From the sequence record OR352953.1: DNA of 64,000 nucleotides; one strand, given 5' to 3'. Shown in pieces: positions 1 through 2,085 of the stretch. The position numbers and the translations under genes were made by a program. The stretch's first letter is position 1; the number at the start of each line of letters is the position of its first letter. This DNA is from Escherichia phage AV123. A model generated the notes under the pieces. That model searched no databases. It was not told the origin of the DNA and saw only the letters and a list, made by a program, of their open reading frames with translations.

Positions 1-2085
1 GTGGCAAGGAAACCTGTCAAACAATCTTTTGAAAATGTAGATATTGAAGTTAAAGCCCAACCTGGCAAACAAACACTAGCTATGGATCTTATGCCTGAAG
101 TAATGATTTATGGTGGTGCGGCAGGTTGTGTTTCAGCAGAAACAGAATACCTAACAAGAGACGGTTGGAAACAAATAAGTGAATATGATGGTGAGGATAT
201 TTATCAATACAATCCAAGAAATAAACGTCTTGAATTAGTTACACCATCTTTTGTAGAATACGATGCTAAAGATAATCTGTATTGTATCACAAACGGAGTA
301 GGTGTCTTCCAAGAATTAAGTATGGAACATCGCTTTGTTTTCTACAAGAAGAAAAAATCCAAAAAACATTTTGAAATTCTTGTTGGGGATCTTATTGCAC
401 TACAGCAAGCAGGACACCCATTACGAGGATATATTGAAAACCCTTTTGGTAAACGTGTTCCGTTTAACATTCAAGGTAAACCTAGCACATACCTAAAAAT
501 TCATGAGGTAATGACAAGTGATGATAAGAAATATTGCTTTGAAACTCCAAGCAGTTATGTCGTGTTTAGACGTGGCGATCACATCTTCGTTACTGGGAAT
601 AGCGGCAAAAGCCGTCTGCTACTTCTAAAGGCACTTAAATACGCATATAAAGATCCCCTGTTTGGTGGTATTCTTTTCCGTAAAAATACAACAGCTTTAC
701 GTAAATCTGGTGGTTTGTTTACTGAAGCTAAAAAACTTTATCTACCATTAAAGCCTCACGTAAGAGAACAGGCTATGGAGATGGAGTTCAGAGCCACAAA
801 AGGTGGTACACTTAAATTTGACCATCTTGAAAATGATAACGTAACTGCTGAAACTAACCATCAAGGTACACAGTATTCGATGGTGGGTTTTGACGAACTT
901 ACACATTTTACACAATATGAAATGCTATATCTGTTAGGGCGTATGCGTTCTGAATCAGAAACGTCTTTTATGCTGTGTACTTGTAACCCTGATGCGGATA
1001 GTTGGGTGTTAAAGTGGGTACTTCCTTATTTGGATGAAGCTGGTTATCCACGAGAAGATATGTGTGGCAAACAGCTATACTTTCTTATTGTGCAAGATGA
1101 ACCAGTATTTGCTGAAACAGCAGAAGAGTTGAAAGAAAAGTATCCTGAAAACTGTTTTATGCAAAACCCAAACACAGGTGAAACAGTGGTTATTGAACCA
1201 CAAACATTTGTGTTCATTGGTGGTACTATCTTTGATAACCCTGAACTAATAAGACTTAACCCTAAATACTTAGCTTCTTTGAAGGCTCAAACCGCCGTTA
1301 AGAGAGCACAGCTTTTAGATGGTTGTTGGTTTGCTCGTGCACAAGAAGAGAGTTTCTTTAACAGAGAATGGTTACACGTTATCAAGTTTAAAGATTTACC
1401 AAACAATCTTAAATATATGCGAGCGTGGGATAAAGCAGTATCTGTTCCAACAGAATCTTATCGTTATCCTGACTACACAACATCTGTTAAAATGGCTAAA
1501 GACTCTGATGGAAATTATTACATTTTTGGTGATTATGATTATGATGCTCACGATGAAGGTAGTAAAATTTTTGGTAGATTCAGAAGACTACCAGGTGATC
1601 GAGATAATTTAATTCTAAACCAATGTAAGATTGATGGAGATGAAGTTACAGTTGTATTGCCAAAAGATCCTTCTGGTGCTGGTTTGATTGAATATACAGA
1701 ATCAGCTAAAAAACTAATTGCTGAAGGATTTGTTGTTAAACCAGATGCTATGCCTGGTAACAAGAAAAAACTACAACGCTTTATGCCATTTAGTAGTGCT
1801 TGTCAAAATGGTTTTGTTTATATTGTAGAAGAATCTTTCCCTAACAAAGAAACTCTTGATCATTTCTATAAAGAGATGGAGTCGTTTAATGGAGAAAGAT
1901 CCACAGCAACATTAAAAGATGATATTCCAGATGCTGCTGCATCTTGCTTTAATACTTTGTCAAAAGAACAGATGTTTAAAGCAGTAGCAATACCTTCTGC
2001 AACAAATGCATTAACAGGGTACGGTAAGATGGGTGGAAGATCAAGAAACTCTTTATCTTCTCCATATAGTATCAGAGGAAGATAA
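1..2085 (+). CDS. terL: terminase large subunit (TerL), intein-containing; may be 5'-partial at window edge (GTG at position 1)
   Basis: 694 aa ORF at the head of the packaging/head module. Once residues 43-200 are removed the sequence reads YGGAAG-SGKS, a canonical Walker A P-loop (GxxxxGKS). Directly followed by a portal-sized gene. Confidence 0.75.
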   Translation: MARKPVKQSFENVDIEVKAQPGKQTLAMDLMPEVMIYGGAAGCVSAETEYLTRDGWKQISEYDGEDIYQYNPRNKRLELVTPSFVEYDAKDNLYCITNGVGVFQELSMEHRFVFYKKKKSKKHFEILVGDLIALQQAGHPLRGYIENPFGKRVPFNIQGKPSTYLKIHEVMTSDDKKYCFETPSSYVVFRRGDHIFVTGNSGKSRLLLLKALKYAYKDPLFGGILFRKNTTALRKSGGLFTEAKKLYLPLKPHVREQAMEMEFRATKGGTLKFDHLENDNVTAETNHQGTQYSMVGFDELTHFTQYEMLYLLGRMRSESETSFMLCTCNPDADSWVLKWVLPYLDEAGYPREDMCGKQLYFLIVQDEPVFAETAEELKEKYPENCFMQNPNTGETVVIEPQTFVFIGGTIFDNPELIRLNPKYLASLKAQTAVKRAQLLDGCWFARAQEESFFNREWLHVIKFKDLPNNLKYMRAWDKAVSVPTESYRYPDYTTSVKMAKDSDGNYYIFGDYDYDAHDEGSKIFGRFRRLPGDRDNLILNQCKIDGDEVTVVLPKDPSGAGLIEYTESAKKLIAEGFVVKPDAMPGNKKKLQRFMPFSSACQNGFVYIVEESFPNKETLDHFYKEMESFNGERSTATLKDDIPDAAASCFNTLSKEQMFKAVAIPSATNALTGYGKMGGRSRNSLSSPYSIRGR
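127..600 (+). mobile_element. mini-intein (Hint domain only, no homing endonuclease) inserted in the TerL P-loop
   Basis: 158 aa insert begins CVSAETEYLTRDGWKQISEY (block A-like, Cys1), has an internal SMEH (block B-like T/SxxH), and ends ...DHIFVTGN followed by Ser (+1 nucleophile). Excision restores GAAGSGKS. Penultimate residue is Gly rather than the usual His. Confidence 0.6.

What the first reader, a model, noticed from the sequence alone, without database searches (positions are those of the whole stretch)
127..600. Mini-intein interrupting the Walker A P-loop of the large terminase
TerL reads ...EVMIYGGAAG-[158 aa]-SGKSRLLLLKAL.... The insert starts with Cys (CVSAETEYLTRDGWKQISEY, block A-like), has an SxxH block B-like element (SMEH), and ends ...DHIFVTGN followed by Ser. 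Removing it yields GAAGSGKS, a perfect GxxxxGKS. At 158 aa there is no room for a homing endonuclease, so this would be a mini-intein. The penultimate residue is Gly instead of the usual His, which may affect C-terminal cleavage. Packaging would depend on protein splicing.
Basis: partly seen in the sequence, partly recalled or inferred. Interest (0 to 1): 0.7.

Follow-up and report, generated by a model that had tools for sequence, protein, structure and literature searches.

The report
Unannotated mini-intein in phage terminase
The DNA-packaging motor gene of this phi92-like E. coli phage is interrupted, exactly inside its ATP-binding loop, by a 158-residue self-splicing protein element (a mini-intein) that public annotations and standard domain libraries miss and that mixes features of two known splicing mechanisms.

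Summary

The 'odd' penultimate Gly is not a defect. The intein belongs to a very large, mostly phage-borne clade (8,864 cluster representatives) with Cys1, His B:10, Cys at block F:4 and a [TS]-G-N end. Most members sit at G|[STC]GK[ST] in P-loops. This signature combines the class 1 nucleophile with the Cys and Thr of class 3. Pfam and NCBIfam see none of it, and curated records do not annotate it. Splicing itself was not tested. It is a new member of a known kind, with moderate interest.

The parts
1..126 (+). N-extein of TerL (aa 1-42; GTG start). It ends with the first half of Walker A, G39-A-A-G42 (nt 115-126).
   Evidence: ORF list and sequence. The conserved PQxGKQ...YGGAAG N-terminus is shared with insert-free TerLs. 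PaulScherrer annotates the same GTG start.
127..600 (+). Mini-intein, 158 aa (TerL aa 43-200). Hint fold, no homing endonuclease.
127..129 (+). Cys1 (TGT), block A:1, the N-terminal nucleophile.
   Evidence: Invariant in alignment A1. Cys in about 185 of 192 clade inteins.
319..330 (+). Block B, S65-M-E-H68 (B:7 to B:10). Phe70 at B:12 follows.
   Evidence: H68 is invariant and S65 is at least 90% conserved. It aligns with S65/H68 of the AceL NrdHF intein (PMC7891396).
535..537 (+). Cys137 (TGC), block F:4. This is the branch-point cysteine position of class 3 inteins.
   Evidence: K135-Y136-C137 are invariant. Cys in 188 of 192 clade inteins. It lies in beta-strand 134-139 of the model. The F:4 assignment follows the motif x-Y-[D/C]-[LF]-x-[VT] (PMC2807308, PMC7891396).
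592..600 (+). Block G end: T156 (G:5), G157 (G:6, in place of the usual His), N158 (G:7, the cyclising Asn).
   Evidence: G157 and N158 are invariant. The [TS]GN end is found across the clade. Numbering follows PMC5222942 and PMC7891396.
601..2085 (+). C-extein of TerL (aa 201-694 plus stop). It starts with Ser+1 and the second half of Walker A, S-G-K-S (nt 601-612).
   Evidence: Terminase_6N and Terminase_6C matches. phrog_979 terminase large subunit at E 3e-221.

Best explanation
Nt 127-600 encode a splicing-competent mini-intein fixed in the large terminase gene of phi92-like and phAPEC8-like phages (Stephanstirmvirinae). TerL is translated as a 79-kDa precursor whose ATP-binding P-loop is split (GAAG / SGKS) and therefore inactive. 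The intein folds into a Hint domain, excises itself (18.4 kDa) and joins G42 to S201. This yields the 536-aa, 60.8-kDa TerL with an intact GAAGSGKS, so DNA packaging depends on splicing.

Chemistry (inferred). A thioester forms at the G42 carbonyl. The acyl group is transferred to the Ser+1 hydroxyl. Asn158 cyclises and releases the intein. An O-to-N shift then makes the peptide bond. The active site is of the AceL-NrdHF type: Ser B:7, His B:10, Cys F:4, Thr G:5, and no His at G:6 or F:13. Unlike AceL NrdHF, it keeps Cys1.

My committed reading is that Cys1 initiates splicing (class 1 step 1), and that Cys137, held by His68 and Thr156, acts as a second thiol that relays the acyl group towards Ser+1 or can initiate by itself. 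My rough split is 0.35-0.4 for a relay or either thiol, 0.3 for strict class 1, and 0.25 for strict class 3.

The element has no endonuclease, so it is no longer mobile on its own. It descends from an endonuclease-bearing intein that homes to G|[STC]GK[ST] in P-loops. It is now inherited vertically and kept functional because a non-splicing mutant would kill the phage.
For: Shown:
- The in-frame insert splits Walker A, and excision restores the motif found in insert-free homologues.
- In-silico splicing raises the Terminase_6N score from 61.7 to 68.6 bits, with the match now starting at model position 1. It lifts Terminase_3 above its cut-off, from 19.6 to 26.8 bits against 23.2.
- Sequence homology to an experimentally splicing intein: 6ZGQ at E 6.6e-11 (PMC7891396).
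- C1, H68, C137, G157 and N158 are invariant, as is Ser+1.
- Purifying selection: intein dN/dS 0.053, extein 0.071, at dS of about 1.6.
- At the same site there are size classes of 146, 158/159, 246 and 301-328 aa, or no insert.
- A TerL pair 87.5% identical in the exteins exists with and without the intein.
- The same clade sits at the equivalent P-loop bond of PhoH and a DnaB-type helicase, and also in RtcB.
- All 136 Stephanstirmvirinae-type TerL genes in the phage collection have it, and these are plaque-forming isolates.
- Clade members survive with Ala, Pro or Lys at position 1 if Cys F:4 is kept, or with Gly or Ser at F:4 if Cys1 is kept. None lacks both.

Precedent: a phage intein with a penultimate Gly splices completely (PMC5050341). 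P-loop inteins in TerL are known and splice (PMC5050341).
Against: - There are no experimental data on splicing of this protein. I found no proteomic record of the junction peptide.
- Pfam and NCBIfam intein or Hint models give no hit even at E<=1-10.
- The canonical His G:6, His F:13 and Asp F:4 are all absent.
- Assigning roles to Cys1 and Cys137 rests on motif alignment and on analogy with AceL NrdHF. I could not read model coordinates to measure distances.
- 'None lacks both cysteines' has no statistical weight (5 and 4 exceptions among 192).
- Metagenomic variants may be pseudogenes.
Confidence: 0.9

Rival explanations
1. Strict class 3 splicing. Cys137 (F:4) attacks the G42-C43 peptide bond directly and forms the block F branched thioester. 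Cys1 is dispensable, a relic or a redox handle.
For: The closest solved and characterised relative is the class 3 AceL NrdHF intein, in which C124 (F:4) is essential and T144 (G:5) hydrogen-bonds His B:10 (PMC7891396). The window intein shares Cys F:4 and Thr G:5, lacks His at G:6 and F:13, and has Ser+1. Clade members with Ala1, Pro1 or Lys1 keep Cys F:4. From memory, WCT inteins beginning with Ser1 or Cys1 were reported to use the class 3 route (Tori & Perler 2011). I could not read that paper here.
Against: Cys1 is nearly invariant across about 190 very divergent clade members. That is not expected for a dispensable residue: position 1 of canonical class 3 inteins is Ala, Pro or other. Trp B:12 is absent (Phe70; mostly Val, Ile or Met in the clade). 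Clade members with Gly or Ser at F:4 still keep Cys1, so F:4 Cys is not obligatory.
Confidence: 0.25
2. Strict class 1 splicing. Cys1 is the only acyl carrier before Ser+1. Cys137 merely replaces the usual Asp F:4 as a hydrogen-bonding or structural residue, or forms a regulatory disulfide with Cys1.
For: Cys1, S-x-x-H in block B, a terminal Asn and Ser+1 are the class 1 set. Class 1 phage inteins with non-His G:6 are documented and active (PMC5050341). Clade members with Gly or Ser at F:4 exist.
Against: Cys F:4 is as invariant as Cys1 (188 of 192) and co-occurs with Thr or Ser at G:5. This is the pair that forms the Cys-His-Thr triad of class 3 inteins (PMC7664689). Clade members without an N-terminal nucleophile exist, and the nearest characterised homologue uses F:4 Cys.
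Confidence: 0.3
3. A domesticated, non-splicing Hint-like insertion. The 158 aa stay in mature TerL as an extra domain, or only cleave as a BIL domain does.
For: No experimental proof of splicing exists. The insert is fixed in the whole subfamily and has no endonuclease. Standard intein HMMs do not match.
Against: The insert sits between residues 4 and 5 of GxxxxGKS, which is incompatible with a phosphate-binding loop. All splice-junction and catalytic residues are invariant, including Asn158 and Ser+1. Orthologues without the insert are otherwise collinear. BIL domains lack the +1 nucleophile (PMC7664689), and here Ser+1 is present. Cleavage without ligation would separate the 42-aa N-extein, which holds half of the Walker A.
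Confidence: 0.04
4. An RNA-level intervening sequence (a group I intron or similar), or an assembly artefact, rather than a protein-level element.
For: TerL genes of this family do host group I introns at other sites.
Against: The insert is in frame with no stop codon and shows codon-level purifying selection (dN/dS 0.053). Rfam finds no intron in nt 1-2300 at E<=1. The translated product folds as a Hint domain. It is present in more than 130 independently sequenced genomes.
Confidence: 0.01

Closest known systems
AceL NrdHF intein (PDB 6ZGQ; naturally split class 3 intein from an Antarctic lake phage-like contig; PMC7891396)
   Different: AceL NrdHF starts with Ala1 (no N-terminal nucleophile), is split into two genes, and sits in a ribonucleotide reductase subunit. 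The window intein has an invariant Cys1, is contiguous, and sits in the TerL Walker A. Only the N-terminal half aligns significantly by sequence.
Mycobacteriophage TerL P-loop inteins (TerL1-a and TerL1-b; Kelley et al. 2016, PMC5050341)
   Same: They are inteins in the Walker A P-loop of a phage large terminase. TerL inteins tested there (sites b, c, e, f, g) splice efficiently. Splicing is argued to be required for ATPase and pentamer assembly. Non-His penultimate residues are frequent in phage class 1 inteins.
   Different: Those sit in Terminase_1-type TerL at or next to GK|T, and the tested TerL1-b and -c inteins have active endonucleases. This one sits in a Terminase_6-type TerL, two residues upstream at G|SGKS, without an endonuclease. 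In that survey TerL6 had only a C-motif insertion. The host phages are coliphages, not actinophages.
Bethlehem gp51 RDF intein (class 1, penultimate Gly; PMC5050341)
   Same: It is a phage intein with Gly at G:6. It splices to completion, and the G316H change slows splicing.
   Different: It sits in a different host protein and contains an endonuclease. I did not test whether it belongs to the same Cys F:4 / TGN clade.
Canonical class 3 (WCT) inteins, e.g. MP-Be DnaB, Msm and Mch DnaB-1 (PMC2807308, PMC7664689)
   Same: They have Cys F:4 and Thr G:5, mostly Ser or Thr at +1, frequent insertion in ATPase P-loops, and a proposed phage origin.
   Different: They lack Cys1, Ser1 or Thr1, have Trp B:12 and usually end in T-H-N. 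The window intein has Cys1 and Phe B:12 and ends in T-G-N.
Canonical class 1 intein of the UvrD/Rep helicase in the same phage genus (PaulScherrer bas60_0082)
   Same: It is a second intein in phi92-like genomes, also inside an ATPase.
   Different: It has C1...YYDIEVED...ILSHN|C (Asp F:4, His G:6), is 347 aa with an endonuclease region, and is annotated in GenBank. It lies outside this window. The TerL intein is not annotated.

Membership tests
Intein (protein-splicing Hint domain) | An in-frame insertion absent from orthologues, whose removal restores a conserved host motif | tested here: met
   GGAAG|158 aa|SGKS against GGAAGSGKS in about 45 insert-free TerLs.
Intein (protein-splicing Hint domain) | Hint (hedgehog/intein) fold | tested here: met
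Intein (protein-splicing Hint domain) | Splice-junction residues: Cys/Ser at position 1, block B [TS]xxH, C-terminal Asn, Cys/Ser/Thr at +1 | tested here: met
   C1, S65-x-x-H68, N158 and S+1 are invariant or nearly so in 27 aligned minis and in 192 clade inteins.
Intein (protein-splicing Hint domain) | Penultimate His (G:6) and Asp at F:4. These are common but not obligatory. | tested here: not met
   Gly157 and Cys137. Both deviations are clade-wide. Active inteins without His G:6 are documented (PMC5050341, PMC7891396).
Intein (protein-splicing Hint domain) | Match to curated intein or Hint profile HMMs | tested here: not met
   No Pfam family at E<=1 and no NCBIfam family at E<=10 for the insert. 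There is also none for endonuclease-bearing clade members. A family profile does hit a PDB intein at E 6.6e-11.
Intein (protein-splicing Hint domain) | Autocatalytic excision with extein ligation | not testable with these tools
   This needs expression with SDS-PAGE or MS, or detection of the junction peptide.
Mini-intein | Splicing domain only, with no homing-endonuclease domain | tested here: met
   158 aa forming a single all-beta domain with one short helix. No endonuclease family is hit. No ORF of 50 aa or more on the opposite strand overlaps nt 127-600. Relatives at the same site carry about 150-170 extra residues.
Class 1 inteins | N-terminal Cys/Ser/Thr that forms the linear (thio)ester | tested here: met
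   Cys1 is present and invariant. Its catalytic use was not tested.
Class 3 inteins | Absence of an N-terminal nucleophile | tested here: not met
   Cys1 is present.
Class 3 inteins | WCT triplet: Trp B:12, Cys F:4, Thr G:5 | tested here: inconclusive
   The triplet here is Phe70, Cys137, Thr156, so C and T are met and W is not. The validated class 3 AceL NrdHF intein has M-C-T (PMC7891396).
Class 3 inteins | Block F branched thioester intermediate, with F:4 Cys obligatory | not testable with these tools
   This needs C179A and S201A mutants and trapping of the intermediate.
Bacterial intein-like (BIL) domains | No +1 nucleophile, so cleavage rather than splicing | tested here: not met
   Ser+1 is invariant, and ligation is required to rebuild GxxxxGKS.
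Group I intron | Catalytic RNA structure, usually not constrained as an in-frame coding sequence | tested here: not met
   No Rfam hit in nt 1-2300 at E<=1. dN/dS is 0.053. True group I introns at other TerL sites are detected by the same search.
Terminase large subunit, Terminase_6 type (host protein) | N-terminal ATPase with Walker A plus a C-terminal RNaseH-like nuclease | tested here: met
   PF03237 at E 8e-19 on the spliced sequence. PF17289 scores 20.7 bits, just under its cut-off of 22.6. phrog_979 at E 3e-221.

The most novel reading that the evidence does not exclude
The phi92 TerL intein represents a very large, mostly phage-borne intein clade (thousands of 50%-identity clusters) that standard domain libraries do not see. 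The clade carries both the class 1 nucleophile (Cys1) and the class 3 catalytic pair (Cys F:4, Thr G:5, with Gly instead of His at G:6).

[quoted passage not shown] The normal reaction uses two successive thioesters (Cys1, then Cys F:4) before transfer to the +1 residue. Either cysteine can be lost, giving pure class 3 descendants such as AceL NrdHF or pure class 1 descendants. This would answer the argument that a class 1 to class 3 conversion needs improbable simultaneous mutations (PMC7664689). It would also offer a genetically tractable E. coli phage system in which to test the idea.
Probability: 0.3. Interest if true: 0.7.

Novelty: new member of a known kind. Interest (0 to 1): 0.45.

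Why it matters
Inteins in terminase P-loops are well known in actinophages, so the kind is not new. Three points still give this one value.

1. It sits in widely used, genetically tractable coliphages (phi92, phAPEC8, BASEL Bas60-63, many therapy candidates). [quoted passage not shown] The carefully curated BASEL records annotate a canonical helicase intein in the same genome but not this one. TerL is the standard marker gene for phage phylogeny and for predicting the packaging mechanism. An unrecognised 158-aa insert therefore distorts alignments, trees and annotations; records call it an 'N-terminal endonuclease domain'.

2. The clade it belongs to is invisible to Pfam and NCBIfam although it has thousands of members. 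This is a practical blind spot for intein surveys.

3. Its active site has both Cys1 and the class 3 Cys-Thr pair. Natural variants lack one or the other. This makes a long-standing question, how class 3 splicing arose from class 1, directly testable with a few point mutants in E. coli.

Tried and rejected
- AF2 on the single sequence gave an unusable model (pLDDT 42). It was only informative once a family alignment was supplied.
- phmmer of the insert alone against PDB gave only chance WW-domain-like hits. The family profile was needed.
- A word-indexed homologue search with the insert alone returned only 5 near-identical fragments. The full TerL query and the exhaustive profile search gave the diversity.
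- tblastn suggested that Felix-O1-like TerLs match from query aa 125, inside the intein. That might have meant a conserved domain. Reading phage Si3 TerL showed an uninterrupted YGGAAGAGKT with a longer N-terminus, so the extension was spurious.
- Composition gives no sign of recent transfer. GC is 0.352 in the intein and 0.369 in the exteins; GC3 is 0.24 and 0.23.
- I searched the other 62 kb of the window in six frames with the clade profile and found no second member.
- Tori & Perler 2011 could not be read, so what I say about it is from memory.
- I could not obtain model coordinates, so I made no Cys1-Cys137-Ser+1 distance measurements.
- 'Never both cysteines lost' was considered as evidence for redundancy. 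I rejected it as statistically empty: the expected number of double losses is about 0.1 in 192.
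Full report
WHAT THE WINDOW IS. The first 2,085 nt are 99.1-99.6% identical to the large-terminase gene of phi92-like coliphages (genus Justusliebigvirus, subfamily Stephanstirmvirinae: inny, PaulScherrer, Eryne, phi92 and others). The ORF at 1..2085 (+) starts with GTG and encodes 694 aa. It matches phrog_979 'terminase large subunit' at E 3e-221 and Pfam Terminase_6N.

THE OBSERVATION. The protein reads ...EVMIYGGAAG|CVSAETEYLTRDGWKQISEY...QELSMEHRFVF...KKYCFETPSSYVVFRRGDHIFVTGN|SGKSRLLLLKAL.... Related terminases without an insert read through this point. 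Aeromonas phage 2L372D, the closest such phage at 52.6% identity, has VMIYGGAAGSGKSRLLLIKALK. Phages A73 and Salmonella phage 41 have GGAAGSGKSYLL. Among 120 database relatives of TerL, about 45 have an uninterrupted G[GAS][AS]GSGKS. About 40 have an insert at exactly this bond, always G|C...[TS]GN|SGKS. The insert lengths are 146, 158/159, 246 or 301-328 aa. Excising the insert in silico lifts the Terminase_6N score from 61.7 to 68.6 bits, with the match now starting at model position 1. It also brings Terminase_3 above its curated cut-off.

WHAT IT IS. Curated profile libraries do not recognise the insert. Pfam gives nothing at E<=1 and NCBIfam nothing at E<=10. The single sequence finds no solved intein and models poorly (pLDDT 42).

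At 158 aa and one domain there is no homing endonuclease. No ORF of 50 aa or more on the opposite strand overlaps nt 127-600. The 300-330-aa relatives at the same site carry about 150-170 additional residues at the usual endonuclease position. Pfam does not recognise that extra domain either.

IT IS MAINTAINED BY SELECTION AND WAS ONCE MOBILE.
- Between the window and phAPEC8, synonymous sites are near saturation (dS about 1.6). dN/dS is 0.053 in the intein and 0.071 in the exteins. The insert is as constrained as the terminase.
- Composition shows no sign of recent transfer.
- All 136 records of the phage collection with a Stephanstirmvirinae-type TerL carry the insert. It is 100% identical at the protein level in 52 of the 55 phi92-like records and about 87% identical in the 77 phAPEC8-like records. 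It is 72% identical in Klebsiella phage 05F01. TerL of Citrobacter phage Tr1 and of Klebsiella phage KP2025 aligns contiguously across the insert.
- Within this group, intein identity tracks extein identity, which indicates vertical co-divergence.
- Outside the group the pattern is patchy. The nearest insert-free TerLs are 62-63% identical. Two Vibrio-phage-type TerLs that are 87.5% identical in their exteins differ by presence or absence of a 146-aa intein (P0038 and P0066).
- tblastn of the insert finds two-piece matches (N and C halves around an endonuclease) in RtcB ligases, a PhoH-like ATPase, a DnaB-type primase/helicase and DNA polymerases of unrelated phages. Reading three of them shows the same signature and, in the ATPases, the same P-loop bond. 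PhoH reads GFAG|CVDADTEFL...KYCFEV...VFVTGN|TSKT. The helicase reads SASG|CVDKDTEYL...KYCFMV...IFITGN|TGKS. RtcB reads VGVDIG|CVDADTEYL...AYCFTV...VFITGN|CGM.

This is the classical picture of a homing intein lineage. One branch lost its endonuclease and became fixed.

THE CLADE AND ITS UNUSUAL ACTIVE SITE. An exhaustive profile search of 1.84 billion cluster representatives finds 8,864 proteins at E<=1e-3 and 1,727 at E<=1e-10. Many have two or more inteins. In the best 148 proteins I delineated 192 inteins. About 185 start with Cys, 191 of 192 have His at block B:10, 188 have Cys at block F:4, and about 190 end in [TS/other]-G-N. The +1 residue is Ser, Thr or Cys. Most sit at G|[STC]GK[ST] of a Walker A.

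Using the standard numbering (Asn = G:7, penultimate = G:6, +1 = G:8; PMC5222942, PMC7891396), the window intein has:
- Cys1
- Ser65 (B:7)
- His68 (B:10)
- Phe70 (B:12)
- Cys137 (F:4)
- Thr156 (G:5)
- Gly157 (G:6)
- Asn158 (G:7)
- Ser+1

A mycobacteriophage intein with a penultimate Gly splices completely and is slowed by a G-to-H change (PMC5050341).

More interesting are Cys F:4 and Thr G:5. [quoted passage not shown] The closest characterised relative, AceL NrdHF, is a validated class 3 intein with an M-C-T triplet. It has no His at G:6 or F:13 and has Ser+1, the same set as here, but it starts with Ala1 (PMC7891396). The window intein keeps an invariant Cys1.

Within the clade I found members with Ala1, Pro1 or Lys1 that retain Cys F:4 (P0199 twice, P0229, P0150, P0187). 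I also found members with Gly or Ser at F:4 that retain Cys1 (P0160, P0187, P0168 twice). Some of these sit at the same ribonucleotide-reductase-like '...RDE|' site. None lacks both cysteines. The numbers are too small for statistics, and metagenomic sequences may be defective. The pattern does suggest that either thiol can carry the reaction.

HOW IT MOST LIKELY WORKS.
Shown:
- The insert splits Walker A.
- It is a Hint domain homologous to a proven splicing intein.
- Every junction and catalytic position is invariant.
- The coding sequence is under strong purifying selection.
- The phages that carry it are viable isolates.

Inferred:
- The 79.2-kDa precursor is inactive.
- The intein excises as 18.4 kDa and ligates G42 to S201, giving the 60.8-kDa TerL with GAAGSGKS.
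- Packaging therefore depends on splicing.
- For the chemistry, I commit to initiation at Cys1, with Cys137 as a second thiol that relays the acyl group towards Ser+1 or can initiate itself. This is followed by Asn158 cyclisation without help from a G:6 His.
- I give about 0.35-0.4 to this dual-thiol reading, 0.3 to strict class 1 and 0.25 to strict class 3. The overall claim, a functional splicing mini-intein, I put at 0.9.

RIVALS.
- A retained, non-splicing domain is hard to reconcile with an insertion between residues 4 and 5 of GxxxxGKS, and with invariant Asn158 and Ser+1.
- A BIL-type cleavage domain is excluded by the +1 nucleophile and by the need to rejoin the two halves of the P-loop.
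- An RNA intron is excluded. The insert is in frame, shows codon-level selection and has no Rfam hit. The same search does detect genuine group I introns at other sites of related TerL genes.
- An assembly artefact is excluded by more than 130 independent genomes.

COMPARISON WITH WHAT IS KNOWN. TerL is the most frequent intein host in mycobacteriophages. P-loop insertions there (TerL1-a and -b, at or next to GK|T) are called 'classic', and TerL inteins tested at other sites (b, c, e, f, g) splice efficiently (PMC5050341). In that survey Terminase_6-type TerLs had only a C-motif insertion. Here a Terminase_6-type TerL is hit two residues upstream, at G|SGKS. The kind is therefore known. The member, the host-phage group and the insertion point in this terminase family are new as far as I could find.

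No paper in the searchable library links an intein to phi92, phAPEC8, Phapecoctavirus, Justusliebigvirus or Stephanstirmvirinae. [quoted passage not shown] The BASEL collection counts 2 inteins and 1 intron for the phi92-like phage PaulScherrer. Its GenBank record marks a canonical intein in the UvrD/Rep helicase with mat_peptide features (C1...YYDIEVED...ILSHN|C), but it lists TerL simply as 'terminase large subunit'. I did not scan the rest of that record, so the second BASEL intein is unidentified. Other records call the protein 'large terminase with endonuclease' or 'with N-terminal endonuclease domain', or start the CDS at an internal ATG (Eryne). I cannot exclude that intein specialists have described the Cys1 / Cys F:4 / TGN clade in papers not held here. 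[quoted passage not shown]

VERDICT. The penultimate Gly is normal for this clade. The active site is a class 1 / class 3 hybrid of the AceL-NrdHF type. Novelty: a new member of a known kind. Interest is moderate (0.45). The result is not surprising in principle. It is useful because it lies in tractable coliphages, exposes a blind spot of the domain libraries, and makes the class 1 to class 3 relationship testable with a handful of mutants.

Noticed in passing
L012 1524-2499 (MG065639 'Campylobacter phage A150'); corresponds to window nt 1223/1231: Some phi92-like genomes (A150, A145, C3, A110a, Salmonella phage UAB_1, Escherichia phage PD114) have a further 976-bp insertion in the same TerL gene, between ...FVFIGGT and IFDNPELI.... 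It contains an HNH-type ORF (about 230 aa) and matches Rfam group I intron at 43.3 bits, E 2e-9, which is below the gathering score of 50. In those phages TerL carries both an intein and a probable intron. The window lacks this insertion.
   Followed up: partly
L004 2192-2434 (Aeromonas phage 2L372D, MK804893): The closest insert-free TerL is annotated as two CDS. The gap between them is a group I intron (Rfam RF00028, 85.3 bits, E 2.7e-22) at yet another site, after the NHQG motif. TerL of this family is a hotspot for self-splicing elements.
   Followed up: partly
L014 9265-10305, minus strand (PaulScherrer MZ501100 69265-70305); outside the window: phi92-like phages carry a second, canonical class 1 intein (347 aa; Asp F:4; ends SHN|C) in a UvrD/Rep-family helicase. 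It is annotated with mat_peptide features by the BASEL authors, who did not annotate the TerL intein. It matches the TerL-intein profile only weakly (13.5 bits).
   Followed up: partly
P0030, P0035, Lederberg RtcB (L008 1285-3396), P0040; the clade generally: Neither the mini nor the endonuclease-bearing members of this intein clade hit any Pfam intein, Hint or LAGLIDADG family at E<=1. Yet the clade has 8,864 cluster representatives at E<=1e-3. The extra domain of the long forms has LAGLIDADG-like strings (LQVAVMADGR, EV..WDGS), but it was not identified.
   Followed up: partly
P0199 (99-428 and 523-829), P0187 (100-319 and 419-651), P0160 (357-510), P0229 (39-360), P0168: These are natural clade variants with Ala, Pro or Lys at intein position 1 plus Cys F:4, or with Cys1 plus Gly or Ser at F:4. 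Some sit at the same '...RDE|' insertion site of one host protein family. [quoted passage not shown]
   Followed up: partly
L013 82-2085 (Eryne PQ529420); L002 2034-3494 (Salmonella phage 41): There are annotation problems in public records. Eryne starts TerL at an internal ATG (nt 82), which cuts off the conserved PQxGKQ N-terminus. Salmonella phage 41 labels its TerL 'CRISPR-associated protein Cas3'. Klebsiella phage K23PH08C2 lists thymidylate kinase, phosphohydrolase and HNH under the TerL match.
   Followed up: no
MG065639, MG065645, MG065656, MG065689: Records named 'Campylobacter phage' (UNVERIFIED, host C. jejuni) are 99% identical to E. coli phi92-like phages over TerL. They are classified in Justusliebigvirus, so the host label is likely wrong or reflects contamination.
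   Followed up: no
L010 930-3731 (Pseudomonas phage KIL1 primase/helicase): The CDS is annotated as a two-piece join although the intervening part is an in-frame intein of this clade (SASG|C...TGN|TGKS). The intein was treated as an intron-like gap.
   Followed up: no
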